Shown here in pieces: positions 3,753 to 18,580 of a stretch of DNA of 20,979 bases. Below the pieces are notes generated by a model that did not search any database, was not told the DNA's origin, and saw nothing but the letters and a program-made list of their open reading frames with translations. This DNA comes from Candidatus Hermodarchaeota archaeon. Lineage in GTDB: Archaea > Asgardarchaeota > Lokiarchaeia > Sigyniarchaeales > SOKP01. The position numbers and the translations under genes are program-made. The first letter of the stretch is position 1; the number at the start of each line of letters is the position of its first letter. The stretch is taken from assembly GCA_048885535.1 (NCBI GenBank), contig JBHLLO010000054.1:1-20979 (forward strand), in the 5' to 3' direction.

Positions 3753-4496
3753 ATGGAGTTTGAATCTAAATATTCTGTTATAAAAACGTTCTTATCAATT
3801 CCTGATAATTCATATAAGCTTAAACAGAAAATAGATTCATTATTTCAATCTGATACTTTTAAAGAAGAAATTTTAGCGAGAATCACTCAGTTCATGTACT
3901 ACTTTTCCATGTTTAAGAATATCACATCATTCATGAATTCTGTATACAGATGCATTGAAAGAACTCTTGATATCAAATTTGAATCAATAGAAGATTTTCA
4001 AGAATTACTTATAAAAAATACATTATTAGCTTTCATTCAAGATTACATTAGTTACGCAAAACTGACCCAAAAGCGACAAATTTTGAAACTTTTATCAGAT
4101 TCTTTAGATAAACTTCAAATTCAACCTCTAATAATTAATTTAGGGCTTCTTCTAAAACCTATGTATCAAGATAAAGAATATCTTGAAAAGCTAGAATATT
4201 TAGAAGAAGTTGAAATTTCTTATAATCAAGAAGATAAACTTGGCTTCGAAATAAAACAAGAAATTGATAGTTGGCTCACAAATCAAACTTTAGATTTAAA
4301 TTCACAAGAAATCCTGAAATTATCATTGAAAAAGAAATATGATGAAATCATTTCCCAAAATAATATTGATAAACAATCAAAGTATTACCAGAAATTATTA
4401 ACAGAAGTTATGGAAATGCTTACAATGAAGCTTACTATGATTAGTTTGATGGAGACAATGTCCGATGATTCAATTGAATCGATACCCATAAAATAA
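3753..4496 (+). CDS. Hypothetical protein (predicted all-alpha)
   Basis: 247-aa ORF with ATG start, preceded by an AT-rich TATA-like stretch (~3720-3730). No recognisable motif. Confidence 0.75.
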   Translation: MEFESKYSVIKTFLSIPDNSYKLKQKIDSLFQSDTFKEEILARITQFMYYFSMFKNITSFMNSVYRCIERTLDIKFESIEDFQELLIKNTLLAFIQDYISYAKLTQKRQILKLLSDSLDKLQIQPLIINLGLLLKPMYQDKEYLEKLEYLEEVEISYNQEDKLGFEIKQEIDSWLTNQTLDLNSQEILKLSLKKKYDEIISQNNIDKQSKYYQKLLTEVMEMLTMKLTMISLMETMSDDSIESIPIK

Positions 4497-4656
4497 GAAA
4501 TAACAAGGCTAAAAACTGAAGAAATAATTTTAAATATTCAAGCAAAATTCAAACCTAAAATTCCAAACTATTAATTCTTCGATAAACAAATTAATAAATA
4601 CAAATTTTGATTTTATATTTATCAAGTAGTATTTCAAATTTTATGAAGTGAGGTAA

Positions 4657-6015
4657 TTGGAAGAAAACGAGGAAGATTTAACACCGGAAGAAATCGAAAA
4701 GCAGAAGAAGATCGTTAATGAACTTTATAAAAAGGAGAAAGAAGAGCGAGAAGAATATCTTAAAAAGTTCGAAGAACAAAGAAAAAAAGGGTTTGAAGAA
4801 AGCAAAAAATTGATATCTAAATTAATTTCAGAAAAAAGTTTTAAGCGAGAAAAACAAAGAGAAGAAGATTTCAAAAGAATCGAGCTTAAGCCAGACATAA
4901 AAGGTGCTGGAGAAGCAATAAGCAAATCAGTCGATCAAAAGTTATTCATGATTGAAAAGAAGAAAGAAAGTGATGCTCAAAGATTAAAGATTAAGCCAGA
5001 TATAGAAAAAACAACTAAAGCTATAAGCAAATCAGTTAATGAAAAGGCTTTTTTAATTGAAAAAAAGAAGGAAGTTGAAGCCCAAAGAATTAGTGTAAAA
5101 CCTGAAATTAAAAAGATGGGACAGGCCATAGAGAAAACTATAAGTGAACAATCATTCATGAGAGAAAAACAGCGTGAAGAAGACACTAAAAGAATGGAAA
5201 TAAAACCAGATTTTAAGGAAGTTGGTGAGGCAATTGAGAAGAGTGTTAGTGAAAAAGCATTTCGGATTGAAAAGCAACGAGAAACAGACCAGAAATTAAA
5301 GACTATCAAAACAGATGTTGAGAAAGTGGAAGAAGCTATAGGCCAATCTGTTAGTGAGAAGGCTTTTAGAATGGAAAAACAACGGGAAACAACAGAAGAA
5401 TTGAAAAAAGTAAAACCCGATTTAGACAAGGCAGGACAAGCAATCGAAAAGTCAGTTAGCGAAAAAGCATATATGCGGGAAAAACAGCGTGAAGAAGATA
5501 CAAAAAGAATGGAAATAAAACCCGATTTTAAAAAAGTCGGTGAGGCAATTGAGAAGAGTGTTGGTGAAAAAGCATTTCGGATTGATAAGCAACGAGAAAC
5601 TGATCAGAAATTAAAGTCAATCAAAACAGATGTAGAGAAAGTAGAGGAAGCAATAAGTCAATCTGTTAGCGAGAAGGCCTTTAGGATGGAAAAGCAACGG
5701 GAAACAGCAGAGGAACTAAAAAAAATAAAGCCTGATTTAGATAAGGCAGGGCAAGCTATTGAGAAATCAGTCAGCGAAAAAGTATTTATACGAGAAAAAC
5801 ATCGTGAAGAAGATGCTAAAAGAATGGAACTAAAACCTGATATACAAAAAACAGGGAAGGCTATTGAGAAAACTATCAGTGAAAAAGCTTTTAGAAGAGA
5901 CAAAATGAGAGAGGAAGACTCAAAGAGAATGGAATTAAAACCTGATATCAAAGGAATAAGTGAAAAAATCGAAGATAAAATAGAAAAAATCGAAGAGAAA
6001 AAGAAAAAAGAATAA
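4657..6015 (+). CDS. K/E-rich 35-aa tandem-repeat protein (nebulin-repeat-like candidate)
   Basis: TTG start preceded by a GTGAGGT SD. After a 42-aa charged N-terminus come 11 full 35-aa repeats plus a partial one. Confidence refers to the CDS and repeat, not to the function. Confidence 0.9.
   Translation: MEENEEDLTPEEIEKQKKIVNELYKKEKEEREEYLKKFEEQRKKGFEESKKLISKLISEKSFKREKQREEDFKRIELKPDIKGAGEAISKSVDQKLFMIEKKKESDAQRLKIKPDIEKTTKAISKSVNEKAFLIEKKKEVEAQRISVKPEIKKMGQAIEKTISEQSFMREKQREEDTKRMEIKPDFKEVGEAIEKSVSEKAFRIEKQRETDQKLKTIKTDVEKVEEAIGQSVSEKAFRMEKQRETTEELKKVKPDLDKAGQAIEKSVSEKAYMREKQREEDTKRMEIKPDFKKVGEAIEKSVGEKAFRIDKQRETDQKLKSIKTDVEKVEEAISQSVSEKAFRMEKQRETAEELKKIKPDLDKAGQAIEKSVSEKVFIREKHREEDAKRMELKPDIQKTGKAIEKTISEKAFRRDKMREEDSKRMELKPDIKGISEKIEDKIEKIEEKKKKE
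4783..6012 (+). repeat. 105-bp (35-codon) intragenic tandem repeat, ~11.7 units, with a 315-bp higher-order duplication
   Basis: Units start at 4783, 4888, 4993, 5098, 5203, 5308, 5413, 5518, 5623, 5728, 5833 and 5938. Consensus is approximately KPD(I/F/L)xKxGxAIEKSVSEKAFRxEKQRExxxKxxx(I/L/V). Blocks 5203-5517 and 5518-5832 share 92/105 aa. Confidence 0.95.
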
Positions 6016-6037: not shown

Positions 6038-6532
6038 TTACATTTCAAAATTATTATTATAATAATAAAGCATTTCTAACTTTTTTTCATAATTTAAAAT
6101 CGAGGGTTCAATTATTCCATTAAATCGTTCGATTGAATTTTCATAACGACTATAAAAATCATTTATGATATAGTGAAGTAGGTGCCTTTCGAATTTTAAA
6201 TTTAATTTTTTAGTTATTGCAATTACAGAGAGGCGCCCCATTCGTTCATATAAAATTCTAGTTTCTCTAAAATTAATTTCTTGTATTTCCTCTTCAGTCT
6301 CAGCAGGTTTTATTTCTTTTATAAACAAATTTAGAGCATTTAAAAATCCGCTTATTAAATCTCCATTCGAAGTAGAATTCTTATTATCTGAATATTGCTT
6401 ACTTAAGAGTAAAGATCCCGTTAAATTATCTAAAAAATAAATTGCATGAAAATAGCAATCATTTTGGTTTGTTCTTCTGACATTAAAGCCAAAAATCCTT
6501 TTCTCTGTATTTTCATTAGAATTAGAAGACAT
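6038..6532 (-). CDS. Stand-alone longin-like domain protein (Asgard eukaryotic-signature type)
   Basis: AIYFLDNLTGSLLLSKQY...DLISGFLNALNLFIKEI...IQEINFRETRILYERMGRLSVIAIT...LHYIINDFYSRY follows the beta-beta-alpha-beta-beta-beta-alpha longin pattern. The 'dLisGflsAl..F..e' helix is typical of Lokiarchaeal longin-like proteins. Confidence 0.75.
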   Translation of the reverse strand: MSSNSNENTEKRIFGFNVRRTNQNDCYFHAIYFLDNLTGSLLLSKQYSDNKNSTSNGDLISGFLNALNLFIKEIKPAETEEEIQEINFRETRILYERMGRLSVIAITKKLNLKFERHLLHYIINDFYSRYENSIERFNGIIEPSILNYEKKLEMLYYYNNNFEM

Positions 6533-6779: not shown

Positions 6780-7244
6780 ATGCATATGAGCACTGAGGGG
6801 AAAAATAAAAATAAAATTTCCTTAGGTTTGATAATAACAAAAGAAGATTTAAAATCTACGATTTTTCCTGATGAAGTTAAAGATGACATTATTGAATCAC
6901 CTTATTATCTACTAATTTTCATATCAAGAGAAGATGTTATAAAAATTAGTTGCTTTCCCACCAATACAAACTTAATTAAAAAAGTGTTAATAAAATTAGA
7001 AGAATTTTCACCTGAAATAGTTAAAGGAATTTCAGAAGTTTTAAGCAAGTTAAACTTAAGCAAAGATATACTACATACGACAGGAATTTGCTACGAATTA
7101 GAAAAGTGTTTTTATGAAACTTATTTAATTGGAGATTCTCTCGAATCTGGGAATATAAATACAGATACCATTATAGATGAGTTTTTAATGATAGAAAAAG
7201 TCAATGATGTCACTATAGAAGATATTCCAATATATTCTAAGTAA
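6780..7244 (+). CDS. Hypothetical protein with possible C-terminal ACT-like domain
   Basis: 154-aa ORF with an AGGAG SD. The C-terminal half (VLIKLEEFSPEIVKGISEVLSKLNL..DILHTTGIC....CFYETYL...LMIEKVNDVTIE) has a beta-alpha-beta-beta-alpha-beta pattern. The fold call is an inference. Confidence 0.65.
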   Translation: MHMSTEGKNKNKISLGLIITKEDLKSTIFPDEVKDDIIESPYYLLIFISREDVIKISCFPTNTNLIKKVLIKLEEFSPEIVKGISEVLSKLNLSKDILHTTGICYELEKCFYETYLIGDSLESGNINTDTIIDEFLMIEKVNDVTIEDIPIYSK

Positions 7245-7296: not shown

Positions 7297-7680
7297 TTAT
7301 TCTTCAATTCGTATTGAATCAAGGGAGCGCCAAGTCTTCCAAAATATTAGCCATAATATCGCAAAAATAAAAATAGTCGTAATACAAGTATAACCTCCTA
7401 TAAACGGATCAATTAAAATCATAAAGGGGATTCCTGCTATAGAAAACCCAAAAAGATAAGCATACCCCCAATATCTTTTCTTTAAAGCAATAATAACTCC
7501 TGGAATAATCGTTGTAATAATTATTGATAAATATGCTAGAACTTCAATATATCTGGGACTTTCCAAAATTAATAACATATTGAACCATGAAACAATAAAA
7601 CCTATTATGAAAAAAATAACCGTTAATAAATTAAATTTCAAATTTAGCTCTCCTTTCACAAAGGATTTATTAAGAGTCAT
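7297..7680 (-). CDS. Small 4-TM membrane protein, unknown function
   Basis: 127 aa with four hydrophobic segments. Confidence 0.8.
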   Translation of the reverse strand: MTLNKSFVKGELNLKFNLLTVIFFIIGFIVSWFNMLLILESPRYIEVLAYLSIIITTIIPGVIIALKKRYWGYAYLFGFSIAGIPFMILIDPFIGGYTCITTIFIFAILWLIFWKTWRSLDSIRIEE

Positions 7681-9021: not shown

Positions 9022-9065
9022 AAATCGTAATTTTCTTTAACAATATAATTTAAGATTTGATTAAT

Positions 9066-10766
9066 ATGACAGAAGAAATAATAAGACGTACAACTAGTAT
9101 ATGCCCAGAATGCTTGCAACCGATAGCAGCTGAAATATATGTCGATGAAGATAAAAATTGGGTAATGATGAGAAAGAACTGTAAAGATCATGGAGATTTT
9201 AAAGACAAACTTAGTATAGACCCAGAAGATTACAAGTGGCAGCAAACATTTACGGACGATATCGGCTCTACAGGAAACCATACTACCAAACCTGAATATG
9301 TTTCTTCGGGAATAAAAGATTGTAATCAAGGTTGTCCTTACGATTGTGGACTTTGCGAGAACCATAAAAGTGCTCCAAATATTTGTCTTATTGATATAAC
9401 AAATAGGTGCAATTTAGCGTGCCCAATCTGCTTCGCTAATGCGAGCGCAAAAGGATATGTTGTCCAACCAACATACGATGAAATCGTCCAAATAATGGAA
9501 CACTTTCGTTCTATGAAACCCACTCCAGCCGTTTTACTCCAGATATCTGGGGGCGAACCAACAGTTAGAGATGACCTTCCCGATATCATTCGAAAAGGAA
9601 AAGAGTTAGGCTTTATTGAAGTCATGGTTACATCTAATGGAGTGAGATTCGCTAAATCAATCGAATATATGAAAAAATGCAAAGATGCTGGAATGGATGC
9701 TATTTATTTGCAATTCGACGCAACCGATAATGCAGAAGTATGGAAGAAAATAAGAGGCGTAAACCTATGGCCTCTAAAACAAAGAGTTATTGAAAATGCA
9801 CGTAAACTTGGATTTTATGGTGTAATGTTAGTTCCTGTAATAGCTAAGGGAGTAAATGATAAAGAAGTCGGTAAAATTATGGATTACGCCAGAGACAATA
9901 ATGATGTCATTTCAGGGATAATATATCAACCTGTATCGCTATGTGGTCGTATAAGTTTTGAAGATTTAATGGATCTACGATATACAACCTCAGACTTGAA
10001 AATAGCGTTGAATGAACATACAAATAATGCAATCACTAAATTTTATCCTTTAGCCACTACAGCCAAAATGACCCGACTGTTAGCATGGTTTGATGATTTG
10101 CCTGAGTGGAGTCCAACTAGTCATTCAGATTGCGGGTTTGCCACTATAGTCGTCGTAAATAATAAAGGTGAATATGAACCCATTGAAAATTATTTTGACG
10201 CAGAAGGTCTCATTAACTGGTCAAATAAAGTCTATGACATGGCTATGAAACAAGAAATTCCCAAACCTACTGGAATCATTAAGGGTTTCAATTTAGAACA
10301 GTTAGGTAGTATTGCGACTAAAGTAGGACAGTTTATCGATGATATAACCAGTTTAGGATATCGCCAGCTAATGAAGGCTTATTATTTTGGTGGAGCGATG
10401 AGATATGTGCGTAATCCTGCAAAAATAATGGATAGCAAAACGTTACTGGCATTTTCTCGCCTAATAGCATTCCCTAACCTACAATCTGCTGGCATGTTCT
10501 TCCACGAGAAAAATTTACTGGTTTCGAGCATGCATTTCCAGGACTCCTACAATTTCGATTTGGACAGAGTATGCCGTTGTTTAGTTCATTATGGAGTAAT
10601 AGACCCCAACGATTCGACTAAGGTCTTAGAAGTACCATTCTGTGCTATGAATACATTGCACAGGGAACGTCTAGAAAATGCTCTGGCTATACAAGGTGAA
10701 GAAGCAAAGAAACCAGAAGTTATCCAGTCTGAGATCGAAGAACTTTTAGAAACCGTTAAGGATTAA
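9066..10766 (+). CDS. tes: Tetraether lipid synthase (Tes / GDGT-MAS, MJ0619 family radical SAM)
   Basis: N-terminal TxSICPEC...KNCKDHG metal site, GCPYDCGLCENH cluster motif, radical SAM TNRCNLACPICFA, QISGGEPT, IYLQFD, HSDCG, SMHFQDSYNFDLDRVCRCLVHY and VPFCAMN. This is the full MJ0619-family layout. Likely start is ATG 9066. Confidence 0.88.
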   Translation: MTEEIIRRTTSICPECLQPIAAEIYVDEDKNWVMMRKNCKDHGDFKDKLSIDPEDYKWQQTFTDDIGSTGNHTTKPEYVSSGIKDCNQGCPYDCGLCENHKSAPNICLIDITNRCNLACPICFANASAKGYVVQPTYDEIVQIMEHFRSMKPTPAVLLQISGGEPTVRDDLPDIIRKGKELGFIEVMVTSNGVRFAKSIEYMKKCKDAGMDAIYLQFDATDNAEVWKKIRGVNLWPLKQRVIENARKLGFYGVMLVPVIAKGVNDKEVGKIMDYARDNNDVISGIIYQPVSLCGRISFEDLMDLRYTTSDLKIALNEHTNNAITKFYPLATTAKMTRLLAWFDDLPEWSPTSHSDCGFATIVVVNNKGEYEPIENYFDAEGLINWSNKVYDMAMKQEIPKPTGIIKGFNLEQLGSIATKVGQFIDDITSLGYRQLMKAYYFGGAMRYVRNPAKIMDSKTLLAFSRLIAFPNLQSAGMFFHEKNLLVSSMHFQDSYNFDLDRVCRCLVHYGVIDPNDSTKVLEVPFCAMNTLHRERLENALAIQGEEAKKPEVIQSEIEELLETVKD

Positions 10767-12341: not shown

Positions 12342-12890
12342 ATGACTACCGAAGAAAGAGAGTTTGTATTTAAAATTACGATTTTAGGAGATGCAGCAGT
12401 AGGTAAAACATCATTAATAAATCAATTCGTTGAAGGAGCTTTTCAAGAGGATTATAAGCCAACATTAGGAGCAAATATTGTTCGCAAGGATGTAGATCTT
12501 AGCGAAATAAATGCACAAGTGCGATTAATCATGTGGGATCTTGCGGGTCAAGAAAAATATAACGTAATTCGTTCTATGTATTTTCAAGGAGTCAGTGGTT
12601 GTATAATTGTTTTTGATTTGACACGTATGGTTACATTCGAGTCGATAGAGACTAAATGGCTAAAGGATTTTAGAAAATATGCTAAAAGAGATGCAGCGTA
12701 TATACTTATAGGCAATAAGGTTGATTTAAATGATGAAAGAGCCGTTCCTGAAGAAAGAGGAAAAGAATTAGCTCAAAAAATACAAGCTAGCGATTTTATT
12801 GAAACAAGTGCTAAATATGGAGATAATGTTGAAAAAGCTTTTAAAAACTTAGTCTTTCAAATTTTAAGAAATTATGGAGAGAAGGTGTGA
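12342..12890 (+). CDS. Rab-like small GTPase (Ras superfamily)
   Basis: G1 GDAAVGKTS, G2 YKPTLG, G3 WDLAGQE, G4 NKVD, G5 ETSAK. RabF-like segments LGANI, YFQGV, IVFDLT. No C-terminal Cys prenylation motif. Confidence 0.95.
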   Translation: MTTEEREFVFKITILGDAAVGKTSLINQFVEGAFQEDYKPTLGANIVRKDVDLSEINAQVRLIMWDLAGQEKYNVIRSMYFQGVSGCIIVFDLTRMVTFESIETKWLKDFRKYAKRDAAYILIGNKVDLNDERAVPEERGKELAQKIQASDFIETSAKYGDNVEKAFKNLVFQILRNYGEKV

Positions 12891-15398: not shown

Positions 15399-17729
<2,331 letters not shown>

Positions 17730-17770: not shown

Positions 17771-18580
17771 TCAAGAAAGTTCAGATTTTAAACCTTTCTT
17801 TATAAATTTAAATAATTCTTCTGAAATTTGCATATCTGTGAATAACCTATCCTTATTTATTTTTATGAACTCTTTACGCATCTTAGAGATTTTTTTCATG
17901 AATGGACGAAATTCATCATATCTACTAATTTCTGTTATTAAATTTCTTGTAATTTTATCTACTTTTTCATGATATCGTTCCTGTTCTGATTTTTTTCTTT
18001 TAGAGTGCTTACCAAAAGCTTTTTTTTCTAAGTTCCCTTCAATAAGATTTATTAAATTATTGACTTCCTTTTCGAGATTTTCTGTTTTGGATGGATCTAT
18101 TGTCATCAGTGGCTTATCCCAATTGTATTGATTAAATAGATCAAATTTTTCATATATATTTTGAACCACTTCCTGTGGAATCGGAAGCCCTCTATTTTTA
18201 TTCCACTCAATGCATTTTTCTAACGGAGTAGCAATATGCACGATAAAAAACCTTTTCTCATACTTTTCAGCAATTTCTTTTAAATCATGACGCATGCTAG
18301 TATAATAATTTAAATCATCACTAATTACAATTGAACCATTCCTTAATCCATTTTTAACTTTTTTTAAGCTTTTTTTTCTAATTAATCCTTCTTTTTTATA
18401 ATCAAACTTGTTAGGAGTTAACGAATTTCTTATTTTGTCTGGATCTACTATTTCTATCCGGAATTTATCATTCCTTTTTTCCATTTGTTGTTGTAAAATA
18501 GCAGCAATTGTACTCTTACCTGATGAAGGTAAACCAACTAATATAATTAAAAAATTTCTATGAATCAATTTTATTTTCAA
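17771..18580 (-). CDS. pstK: L-seryl-tRNA(Sec) kinase (PSTK)
   Basis: LIILVGLPSSGKST, D.IR, VISDDLNYYTSMRHDL, IP.EVV..IYEKFD...YNWDKP and a C-terminal 'vDKiTR.lI.E...RKEFiK' tRNA-binding domain closely follow archaeal PSTK (KTI12/PSTK family). Exact start uncertain (TTG 18580 or 18568). Confidence 0.88.
   Translation of the reverse strand: MKIKLIHRNFLIILVGLPSSGKSTIAAILQQQMEKRNDKFRIEIVDPDKIRNSLTPNKFDYKKEGLIRKKSLKKVKNGLRNGSIVISDDLNYYTSMRHDLKEIAEKYEKRFFIVHIATPLEKCIEWNKNRGLPIPQEVVQNIYEKFDLFNQYNWDKPLMTIDPSKTENLEKEVNNLINLIEGNLEKKAFGKHSKRKKSEQERYHEKVDKITRNLITEISRYDEFRPFMKKISKMRKEFIKINKDRLFTDMQISEELFKFIKKGLKSELS

What the first reader, a model, noticed from the sequence alone, without database searches (positions are those of the whole stretch)
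4657..6015. 35-aa tandem-repeat protein resembling nebulin repeats: candidate filament-binding ruler/stabiliser in an Asgard archaeon
Seen in sequence: 11 full units of exactly 35 aa with no indels, e.g. KPDLDKAGQAIEKSVSEKAYMREKQREEDTKRMEI. Each has a helix-breaking KPD, an amphipathic helix and a conserved S-E-K-A-[F/Y]-[R/M] core. The protein is too polar for a self-folding solenoid, and the recurring Pro plus non-heptad hydrophobic pattern argue against a plain coiled coil. Established knowledge: nebulin repeats are ~35 aa, have the pattern PExxxAK...SDxxYK, are unstructured alone and bind one actin protomer each. Asgard archaea encode bona fide actins and actin regulators. Here the P-to-S spacing is 14 versus about 13 in nebulin, and SExx[F/Y]R parallels SDxxYK. 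Some units also end in LKKV, LKKI or LKTI, the WH2/beta-thymosin actin-binding motif. Inference: strict length conservation implies binding to a periodic polymer, with Lokiactin filaments the best candidate. I know of no described prokaryotic nebulin-like protein. The similarity could be convergent or coincidental.
Basis: partly seen in the sequence, partly recalled or inferred. Interest (0 to 1): 0.82.

Follow-up and report, generated by a model that had tools for sequence, protein, structure and literature searches.

The report
Lokiarchaeal 35-residue helical repeat protein
A family of Lokiarchaeia (Asgard archaea) carries a previously undescribed, highly charged protein built from 11-12 helical units of exactly 35 residues; it may lie along a filament such as Lokiactin, but it shows no detectable kinship to nebulin and its partner is unknown.

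Summary
Window 4657-6015 (+) encodes a 452-aa protein that is almost entirely 35-aa units. In 69 related Promethearchaeota (Lokiarchaeia) loci plus the fetched relatives, 633 of 647 unit-to-unit spacings are exactly 35 aa. dN/dS is 0.10-0.20, and protein length changes only in whole units.

The nebulin/WH2 resemblance fails every test I could run. The Pfam Nebulin, WH2 and Thymosin models matched 0 of 116 units. Strict SDxxYK is absent, and LKK-like endings occur in 8 of 116 units.

AlphaFold2 and the ESM Atlas model give one roughly 30-aa helix per unit and no tertiary fold (pTM 0.14-0.20). The top 30 column couplings include no contacts between different positions of neighbouring units.

The gene is confined to one family of Lokiarchaeales (109 of 134 genomes), with diverged relatives of 32-aa and 37-aa period elsewhere. 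It is cleanly missing from two genera whose Lokiactin is 97-100% identical.

My best reading, at about 0.35, is an extended modular scaffold whose units dock on a periodic partner. The protein is at most an analogue of nebulin, not a homologue.

The parts
4657..6015 (+). Complete ORF of the repeat protein (452 aa plus stop), TTG start
   Evidence: The start is conserved in orthologues. dN/dS is 0.10-0.20 between orthologues.
4648..4654 (+). GTGAGGT Shine-Dalgarno-like site, 2 nt before the TTG
   Evidence: Read directly. GTGAG(A/G)AA precedes the start in the orthologues for which upstream bases were printed. Its function is inferred.
4678..4782 (+). aa 8-42: degenerate 'unit 0', the best conserved part of the protein and part of a long N-terminal helix
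   Evidence: Invariant columns E11 E12 I13 E14 K17 I19 and others in 20 orthologues. AF2 helix 10-76 has pLDDT 82-88. Reading it as a degenerate unit is my inference.
4783..4887 (+). aa 43-77: first unit, with no KPD linker (starts KKG) but a recognisable core
   Evidence: It is counted among the 11 unit-profile hits in G000.
4888..5937 (+). aa 78-427: ten canonical 35-aa units (a K-P/T-D linker followed by a roughly 30-aa helix)
   Evidence: AF2 helices break at each KPD.
5203..5832 (+). Two copies of a 3-unit (105-aa, 315-nt) super-repeat, 5203-5517 and 5518-5832
   Evidence: TRF gives period 315, 2.3 copies and 85% matches over 5162-5892. The unit-by-unit identity matrices are 3-periodic in the centre of the array, also between species.
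5938..6012 (+). aa 428-452: truncated terminal unit plus lysine-rich tail, conserved among orthologues
   Evidence: P429 D430 I431 G433 E439 E446 K448 K449 are invariant in 20 orthologues.

Best explanation
The gene encodes a cytoplasmic, single-copy, lineage-specific structural protein of one family of Lokiarchaeales.

Architecture: the protein is a string of about 12 rigid, salt-bridged alpha-helices of roughly 27-30 residues each. Short K-P-D-x4-G linkers join them, and both ends carry specialised, conserved sequences. It has no globular fold of its own.

Proposed mechanism (inferred): the protein acts as an extended multivalent scaffold, ruler or stabiliser. Each 35-aa unit would dock on one subunit of a periodic partner. 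Conserved residues lie all around the helix (I11, I15, E17, K18, A19, F20, E23, K24, R26, E27, D29, R32), and unit length is held fixed so that successive units stay in register.

Candidate partner: the Lokiactin filament is the best dimensional match. One unit can span the 55.8 A between successive subunits of one strand.

If this is right, the protein works like nebulin by convergence and is not a nebulin family member.

Shown: the architecture, the length constraint, purifying selection, the distribution, the lack of a predicted fold, and the lack of homology to nebulin or WH2.

Inferred: that a periodic partner exists, and that it is Lokiactin.
For: - Length constraint: 633 of 647 unit spacings are exactly 35 aa. 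Within the home-family loci only 9 of about 642 are irregular. That is roughly 0.04 irregular spacings per 100 aa. Neighbouring genes in the same loci show 0.18-0.84 gap openings per 100 aligned aa. The two measures are not identical, so this is an order-of-magnitude comparison only.
- Protein lengths step by whole units: 280, 385, 419, 452-456 and 489-491 aa.
- The array is old, not freshly amplified. Units are 26-89% identical to the first unit. The terminal units are recognisably orthologous between species. dS is saturated between subclades while dN/dS is 0.10-0.20.
- No autonomous fold is predicted. AF2 on the full length with 20 sequences gives pLDDT 63 and pTM 0.18. Six units with 107 sequences give pLDDT 71 and pTM 0.20, with one helix per unit. 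The Atlas model has pTM 0.14. Foldseek against the PDB found 0 matches at E<=10.
- In an MI/APC analysis of 598 adjacent unit pairs, the top 30 couplings are all either within a unit or between the same column of successive units.
- Conservation is spread around the helix: the information moment is 0.07, and invariant F20 lies opposite the I11/I15 seam.
- The termini are conserved and specialised.
- The genome has actins at about 440 bits. The Lokiactin filament rise is 27.9 A per subunit (passages of PMC9834061). By my geometry, a 27-30-aa helix (40-45 A) plus a 5-8-aa linker can span 55.8 A.
Against: - No partner is shown. The only complex job (two Lokiactins plus three units) was not folded.
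- The period is not universal. It is 37 aa in the G030 homologue and about 32 aa or mixed in the metagenomic relatives P0042 and P0001 (read by eye).
- A uniform period within a protein is also what unit duplication produces, and fixed unit length is also typical of packed solenoids.
- The gene is cleanly absent from genera g17 (0 of 2) and g23 (0 of 7). There its two flanking genes abut each other, and Lokiactin is 97-100% identical. Any role on actin is therefore dispensable.
- It was not found in the other 30 or so Asgard families sampled, all of which would be expected to have actin.
- There is no expression evidence.
- The fold predictions rest on shallow, closely related alignments.
Confidence: 0.35

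Rival explanations
1. Self-assembling fibrous or bundle protein. The helices pack against helices of the same or other chains, for example spectrin-like three-helix bundles from each 105-aa super-repeat, or an antiparallel sheet of helices. Unit length is fixed by that packing, not by a foreign polymer.
For: A 3-unit (105-aa) super-repeat is seen at the DNA level and between species. Each helix has two opposite semi-hydrophobic faces, I4/I11/I15/22 against A19/F20/L35. The N-terminal 67-residue helix is confident and partly heptad-like (the heptad reading is mine). Fixed unit length is normal for packed repeats (established knowledge).
Against: AF2 gives no packing even with 107 sequences (pTM 0.20). 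No inter-unit couplings at differing positions appear in the top 30. Only 23% of residues are VILMFWY and the charged fraction is 0.515. There is no Pfam Spectrin or other repeat-family hit.
Confidence: 0.2
2. Docking rail for many copies of a soluble globular partner, as with Sfi1 and centrin or IQ arrays and calmodulin. The partner might be the Roadblock/longin-like protein encoded convergently next door.
For: The helices are regularly spaced and conserved on all faces. The neighbour at 6038-6532 (-) is syntenic in 63 of 69 loci. It has an Atlas lead to Roadblock/LAMTOR2/longin clusters at 0.89, which is a lead only.
Against: The neighbours persist unchanged in genera that lack the repeat gene. 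The synteny lies within a single family, so it carries little information. The distant homologues are not syntenic with these neighbours. No binding test was run.
Confidence: 0.12
3. Peripheral membrane or lipid binder made of proline-punctuated amphipathic helices, in the manner of exchangeable apolipoproteins or perilipins. It might coat or shape the membrane protrusions of Lokiarchaeia.
For: Residues 9-22 of the unit have a hydrophobic moment of 0.82 per residue, with I4, I11, I15 and position 22 on one face. Proline punctuates the helices. The net charge is slightly positive and the pI is 9.06.
Against: The hydrophobic face is narrow and interrupted by invariant K18. The C-terminal half of each helix is purely charged. 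Invariant F20 lies on the opposite face. There is no Pfam apolipoprotein, perilipin or LEA hit. Membrane binders rarely need an exact unit length.
Confidence: 0.1
4. Non-specific hydrophilin, entropic spacer or stress protectant (LEA-like polyampholyte) with no defined partner.
For: The composition is extremely charged and lies on the 'natively unfolded' side of the charge-hydropathy plot. It is an orphan family with presence/absence variation.
Against: Position-specific conservation is strong: I11 is invariant, and K18 occurs in 115 and F20 in 113 of 116 units. Within-unit indels are almost absent. dN/dS is 0.1-0.2. All of this is unlike typical disordered protectants.
Confidence: 0.08
5. A true homologue of eukaryotic nebulin or WH2 actin-binding repeats, inherited from the Asgard ancestor of eukaryotes.
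For: It has the same nominal unit length of 35 aa, and the organism has eukaryote-like actin.
Against: - The Pfam Nebulin, WH2 and Thymosin models matched 0 of 116 units at E<=10.
- They gave nothing on the full protein at E<=1.
- The Nebulin model found 0 hits in the six-frame genome at E<=10, while it rang by chance (below the family cut-off) in 9 of 14 control genomes.
- Strict SDxxYK occurs 0 times and the relaxed form in 11 of 116 units. LKK-like endings occur in 8 of 116 units.
- The super-repeat is 3 units, not 7, and there is no SH3 domain.
- The family is confined to one Lokiarchaeales family plus two sister families.
Confidence: 0.03

Closest known systems
Nebulin / nebulette simple repeats (Pfam PF00880)
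   Same: The nominal unit is about 35 aa. The unit is mostly helical with a short linker. The protein is not globular on its own. It has end-specific modules and a higher-order super-repeat. One unit can span one actin subunit along a strand (my geometry). Nebulin's own properties are recalled from established knowledge.
   Different: There is no profile or motif similarity. The super-repeat is 3 units, not 7. There is no SH3 domain or other terminal domain. The protein has 11-12 units, not about 185 (recalled). Actin binding is untested.
GvpC of gas vesicles (33-aa helical repeats that lie across the periodic GvpA ribs; recalled)
   Same: It is a prokaryotic precedent for a charged helical tandem-repeat protein whose unit length matches a periodic protein lattice and whose unit number varies between strains.
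   Different: No Pfam GvpC hit appeared among the 7 families listed for the units. No GvpA was found in the genome, although the control for that search was silent.
Sfi1 centrin-binding repeats and IQ-motif arrays (recalled)
   Same: A long helix, or string of helices, with regularly spaced conserved motifs, each able to hold one copy of a partner.
   Different: No sequence similarity was detected. Those arrays form one continuous helix without proline linkers.
ER/K single alpha-helices and proline-punctuated apolipoprotein helices (recalled)
   Same: i/i+3 and i/i+4 opposite-charge pairs run along each helix (read from the consensus), and prolines separate the helices.
   Different: Here invariant hydrophobic and aromatic positions and an exact period are conserved across 69 genomes. 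Neither class requires this.
Spectrin repeat (106 aa, three helices; recalled)
   Same: The 105-aa super-repeat of three roughly 30-aa helices is the same size.
   Different: There is no Pfam Spectrin hit. AF2 does not pack the three helices. Linkers occur after every helix.

Membership tests
Nebulin repeat (PF00880) | Matches the Pfam Nebulin profile | tested here: not met
   0 of 116 units at E<=10. The full protein gave no hit at E<=1. The six-frame genome search with PF00880 gave 0 hits at E<=10. A profile-profile (HHpred) comparison could not be run.
Nebulin repeat (PF00880) | Conserved SDxxYK motif in each unit (motif recalled) | tested here: not met
   Strict motif: 0 in 23 full-length proteins. 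Relaxed S[DE]xx[YF][KR] at the aligned place: 11 of 116 units.
Nebulin repeat (PF00880) | Unit of about 35 aa | tested here: met
   633 of 647 spacings are 35 aa.
Nebulin repeat (PF00880) | Seven-unit super-repeat and C-terminal SH3 domain (recalled) | tested here: not met
   The super-repeat is 3 units. There is no SH3 or other domain hit.
Nebulin repeat (PF00880) | One unit binds one actin protomer of a filament | not testable with these tools
   The complex-prediction job was not folded because of a rule on eukaryote-like chains. This needs biochemistry.
WH2 / beta-thymosin (PF02205, PF01290) | Profile match and conserved LKK[TV] after an amphipathic helix (motif recalled) | tested here: not met
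   Neither family appears. L[KR][KTS][VIL] at positions 32-35 occurs in 8 of 116 units, and LKK[TV] occurs once in 23 proteins. The most frequent residues at positions 32-35 are R, M, E and L.
Alpha-solenoid repeats (TPR/PPR-like) | Two packed helices per unit forming a confident superhelix | tested here: not met
   One helix per unit, pTM 0.18-0.20. No inter-unit couplings. No Pfam hit. These are predictions only.
Canonical coiled coil | Continuous heptads with hydrophobic a/d positions | tested here: not met
   With a = 4, 11, 18, 25, 32 and d = 8, 15, 22, 29, only positions 4, 11, 15 and (partly) 22 are hydrophobic. K18 and D29 occupy core positions. Pro2 is present in 97 of 116 units. No coiled-coil program was run.
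GvpC (gas-vesicle repeat protein) | GvpC profile match and a GvpA lattice in the same genome | tested here: inconclusive
   There is no GvpC family among the hits. GvpA (PF00741) was not found in G000, but that search also rang in no control genome.

The most novel reading that the evidence does not exclude
The protein is a convergently evolved, nebulin-like side-binder of Lokiactin filaments. Each 35-aa helix-plus-linker unit would cover one actin subunit (55.8 A), so an 11-12-unit protein would stabilise or measure roughly 60-70-nm stretches of filament. It would be the first filament 'ruler' known in archaea, and an accessory that some Lokiarchaeales genera have lost.
Probability: 0.17. Interest if true: 0.85.

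Novelty: new variant of a known kind. Interest (0 to 1): 0.52.

Why it matters
Known Asgard actin regulators are essentially profilins and gelsolins (passage of PMC13716822). No filament side-binding or length-setting protein turned up in my searches: 'Asgard' with 'nebulin' gave 4 irrelevant papers, 'nebulin-like' with 'archaea' gave 0, 'Asgard archaea' with 'actin-binding' and 'tandem repeat' gave 1 general review, and 'Lokiactin' with 'repeat' gave 17 papers, of which I read passages of two.

This family is a clean, experimentally tractable candidate. It is small, single-copy and soluble-looking, and it has invariant positions to mutate. Its natural alleles carry different unit numbers (the profile detects mostly 9-12, range 2-12).

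If it decorates Lokiactin or another polymer, it would show that modular rulers arose independently outside eukaryotes. If it does not, it is still an undescribed fold-less repeat family with an unusually strict length constraint that needs explaining.

Tried and rejected
- Word-index homology search with the full protein: no hit at E<=1e-3 among 8000 candidates, probably swamped by K/E-rich words. The exhaustive representative search gave only 44 hits, mostly fragments. The two long hits (P0039, P0041) are unrelated repeat proteins. No informative domain fusion was seen.
- Profile of the unit against PDB sequences: only chance hits, E>=0.63.
- Foldseek of the 6-unit model against the PDB: 0 matches at E<=10. 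I did not run the VIA searches, because a model with pTM 0.20 cannot give a meaningful fold match.
- ESM Atlas: the best feature hit scored 0.76, below the chance level the tool states, and structural TM scores were <=0.26.
- Pfam hits to Entericidin (16 of 116 units, best E 0.0019) and CAT_RBD (11 of 116, best E 0.022) are short matches that I rejected as spurious.
- Viral contigs: no relative found.
- RNA evidence: no RNA holder was listed.
- Complex prediction returned 'not folded' (no verdict), see below.
- Exact look-up: this exact sequence is not in the 15-billion collection, and the neighbours are unnamed.
- The antisense ORFs at 4977-5429 and 5658-5951 (-) are rejected as by-products of the repeat. 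The + frame carries the conservation and the low dN/dS.
- Supplementary files of papers were not opened. Protein lists in the supplements of PMC13716822 and PMC9834061 could bear on whether a homologue has been seen.
Full report
**What is there.**
Window 4657-6015 (+) is a 452-aa ORF with a TTG start. A GTGAGGT Shine-Dalgarno-like site precedes it. The same start (ATG in two orthologues) and upstream GTGAG(A/G)AA recur in the orthologues examined.

In register from residue 78 the protein has ten canonical 35-aa units, for example KPDLDKAGQAIEKSVSEKAYMREKQREEDTKRMEI. A semi-degenerate unit (aa 43-77) comes before them, and a still more degenerate but very conserved stretch (aa 8-42) comes before that. 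A truncated conserved unit with a lysine-rich tail follows (aa 428-452).

Tandem Repeats Finder sees period 105 and a 315-nt, 3-unit super-repeat at 85% identity. The only correction is that the 'S' of its S-E-K-A-F core is variable (S in 30 of 116 units). The conserved core is E17-K18-A19-F20, with I11 invariant.

**Whose gene it is.**
The genome (G000, 3.09 Mb, 112 contigs, 91.6% complete) holds one copy. A pattern-plus-tblastn scan of one genome per prokaryote species found 69 loci. Nearly all are titled Promethearchaeota or Promethearchaeia MAGs. A few carry Hodarchaeota, Odinarchaeota or, once, a bacterial label, which I take to be mislabelled bins.

G000 encodes two actins at about 440 bits on Pfam Actin. 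It also has two more distant actin-family genes (215 and 162 bits, ARP-like by my reading) and two FtsZ/tubulin-family proteins. A Ras-family GTPase, CDC48 and KTI12 lie in the window. 'Asgard archaeon' is supported.

**How strict the period is.**
A unit HMM built from 116 units was run on the ORFs of the 69 loci and of the loci fetched earlier. It gave 647 successive unit spacings, of which 633 are exactly 35 aa. The exceptions are 37 (six, five of them in the single sister-family homologue G030), 32 (five), 59 (two) and 74 (one).

Within the home family that is 9 irregular spacings in about 642, or roughly 0.04 per 100 aa. Neighbouring genes of the same loci show 0.18-0.84 gap openings per 100 aligned aa against the window's proteins. 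The two measures differ, so this comparison is order-of-magnitude only.

Orthologue lengths step by whole units: 280, 385, 419, 452-456 and 489-491 aa. In 56 complete ORFs the unit profile detects 2 (1 ORF), 6 (2), 7 (1), 9 (5), 10 (4), 11 (24) or 12 (19) units. Thirteen loci that touch a contig end or are split were left out.

The array is old. Units are 26-89% identical to the first one. Terminal units are recognisably orthologous between species, while central units show a 3-periodic pattern. dN/dS is 0.10-0.20, with dS saturated between subclades. This is a real gene under purifying selection, with an unusual ban on within-unit indels.

**Distribution.**
With the unit profile, 113 of 400 genomes of the phylum match. 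These are 109 of 134 in the home family (11 of its 13 sampled genera), 1 of 14 and 2 of 4 in two sister families of the same order, and 0 in all other families.

The exhaustive search of 1.84 billion representatives found only 44 hits, mostly fragments. Distant relatives keep the I-x-K-x-[IV]-x-E/x-K-A/S-F core but use other periods. The G030 homologue uses 37 aa throughout. P0042 uses about 32 aa and P0001 mixed periods, read by eye.

Genera g17 (0 of 2) and g23 (0 of 7) lack the gene. In four of their genomes the two flanking genes sit next to each other with the repeat gene cleanly missing. Their Lokiactin is 97-100% identical to that of G000. The distant homologues are not syntenic with these neighbours. 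No viral relative exists in IMG/VR.

**Does it fold?**
The composition is 21% K and 19% E, with a charged fraction of 0.515, net charge near zero, pI 9.06, 23% VILMFWY, and hydropathy 0.352 against a Uversky boundary of 0.422.

AF2 on the full length with 20 orthologues gives pLDDT 63 and pTM 0.18. It predicts one helix of about 30 residues per unit, broken at each KPD, and a confident 67-residue N-terminal helix. Six units with a 107-sequence alignment give pLDDT 71 and pTM 0.20, with the same picture. The ESM Atlas's own model has pTM 0.14. Foldseek finds nothing in the PDB.

A mutual-information analysis with APC correction on 598 adjacent unit pairs puts only within-unit pairs (separations 1-12) and same-column pairs in the top 30. 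There are no contacts between different positions of neighbouring helices. This is a crude analysis confounded by relatedness.

Heptad core positions are hydrophobic in only about 4 of 10 cases. K18 and D29 sit in core positions, and Pro2 is present in 97 of 116 units.

**Is it nebulin-like by sequence?**
No. The Pfam Nebulin, WH2 and Thymosin models do not appear for the full protein at E<=1 or for any of 116 units at E<=10. The Nebulin model finds nothing in the six-frame genome at E<=10, although it rings by chance (below the family cut-off) in 9 of 14 control genomes.

Strict SDxxYK occurs 0 times in 23 proteins, and the relaxed form sits at the aligned place in 11 of 116 units. LKK-like unit endings occur in 8 of 116 units, four of them in this window. 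The most frequent residues at positions 32-35 are R, M, E and L. The super-repeat is 3 units and there is no SH3 domain.

The nebulin and WH2 motifs are recalled, not taken from a tool. A profile-profile test could not be run, because no nebulin alignment was obtainable here.

**What it most likely does.**
The anatomy is rigid, charged helices with conservation on all faces, including an invariant exposed aromatic residue. Linkers of fixed length, specialised ends and the absence of a fold of its own complete the picture. It fits best an extended multivalent scaffold whose units dock in register on a periodic partner.

Lokiactin filaments rise 27.9 A per subunit (passages of PMC9834061), which is 55.8 A along a strand. 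A 27-30-residue helix plus a 5-8-residue linker can span that distance by my geometry. This would be functional analogy to nebulin by convergence.

I give the periodic-partner reading 0.35, and Lokiactin specifically about 0.17. The variable period in sister lineages, the loss in genera with identical actin and the complete lack of binding evidence all count against it.

I did not pursue it further. No RNA run was listed.

**Rivals.**
- Self-assembly into bundles or fibres: 0.20.
- A rail for many copies of a soluble partner, such as the Roadblock/longin-like neighbour (Atlas lead 0.89): 0.12.
- A membrane-binding amphipathic-helix coat: 0.10.
- A non-specific hydrophilin: 0.08.
- True nebulin/WH2 homology: 0.03.

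**Novelty and verdict.**
My paper searches found no description of such a protein. [quoted passage not shown] The family matches no Pfam or PDB entry.

I rate it a new variant of a known kind (periodic helical repeat scaffolds) in an undescribed family, with interest about 0.5. The structural regularity is striking and the hypothesis is testable, but the functional claim is still inference.

Noticed in passing
window 6038-6532 (-): A 164-aa protein convergent with the repeat gene and syntenic in 63 of 69 loci. It has no Pfam hit. The ESM Atlas places it among Promethearchaeota-only clusters (0.93-0.97), with a 0.89 lead to 'Roadblock/LAMTOR2 domain' clusters in which Fuz_longin_1 occurs on 22% of members. 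It has several paralogues in relatives.
   Followed up: partly
window 3753-4496 (+), 6780-7244 (+), 7297-7680 (-): Three further small ORFs without a Pfam family. The last, by eye, looks hydrophobic and membrane-like. They are conserved in order and orientation around the repeat gene in 53-62 of 69 loci and are retained where the repeat gene is absent.
   Followed up: partly
window 12342-12890 (+); 15399-17678 (-); 17771-18580 (-); 9057-10766 (+): A Ras-family small GTPase (169 bits), CDC48 (AAA, two domains), a KTI12 homologue, and a radical-SAM protein with an HMPTM-type N-terminal zinc ribbon.
   Followed up: no
G000:C8:65729-66841 and G000:C58:5437-6546: Two Lokiactin-type genes that are 85% identical to each other. 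The first is 95-100% identical across the whole family. One search lists a second paralogue of this kind (81-85% identity) in only some of the 41 genomes.
   Followed up: partly
L049, L034, L035, L051, L081, L095, L097: Contigs carrying this Lokiarchaeal gene and its syntenic neighbours are titled 'Nanopelagicaceae bacterium', 'Hodarchaeota' or 'Odinarchaeota'. The labels of these MAGs look wrong or inconsistent.
   Followed up: no
window 4657-6012 (+): The exact protein is absent from the 15-billion-protein collection although its three neighbours are present. The ESM Atlas, however, holds it letter for letter. Gene callers may treat its TTG start or its repeats inconsistently.
   Followed up: no
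L022, L023 (G027, G029), about 3965-4897 (-): The weak homologues in a high-GC sister family carry, after one or two EKAF-type units, a different C-terminal repeat of about 38-41 aa, read by eye.
   Followed up: no
window 4610-4622 (+): An AT-rich TTTATATTTAT stretch about 35-45 nt upstream of the TTG could be an archaeal TATA box giving the gene its own promoter (read, not tested).
   Followed up: no
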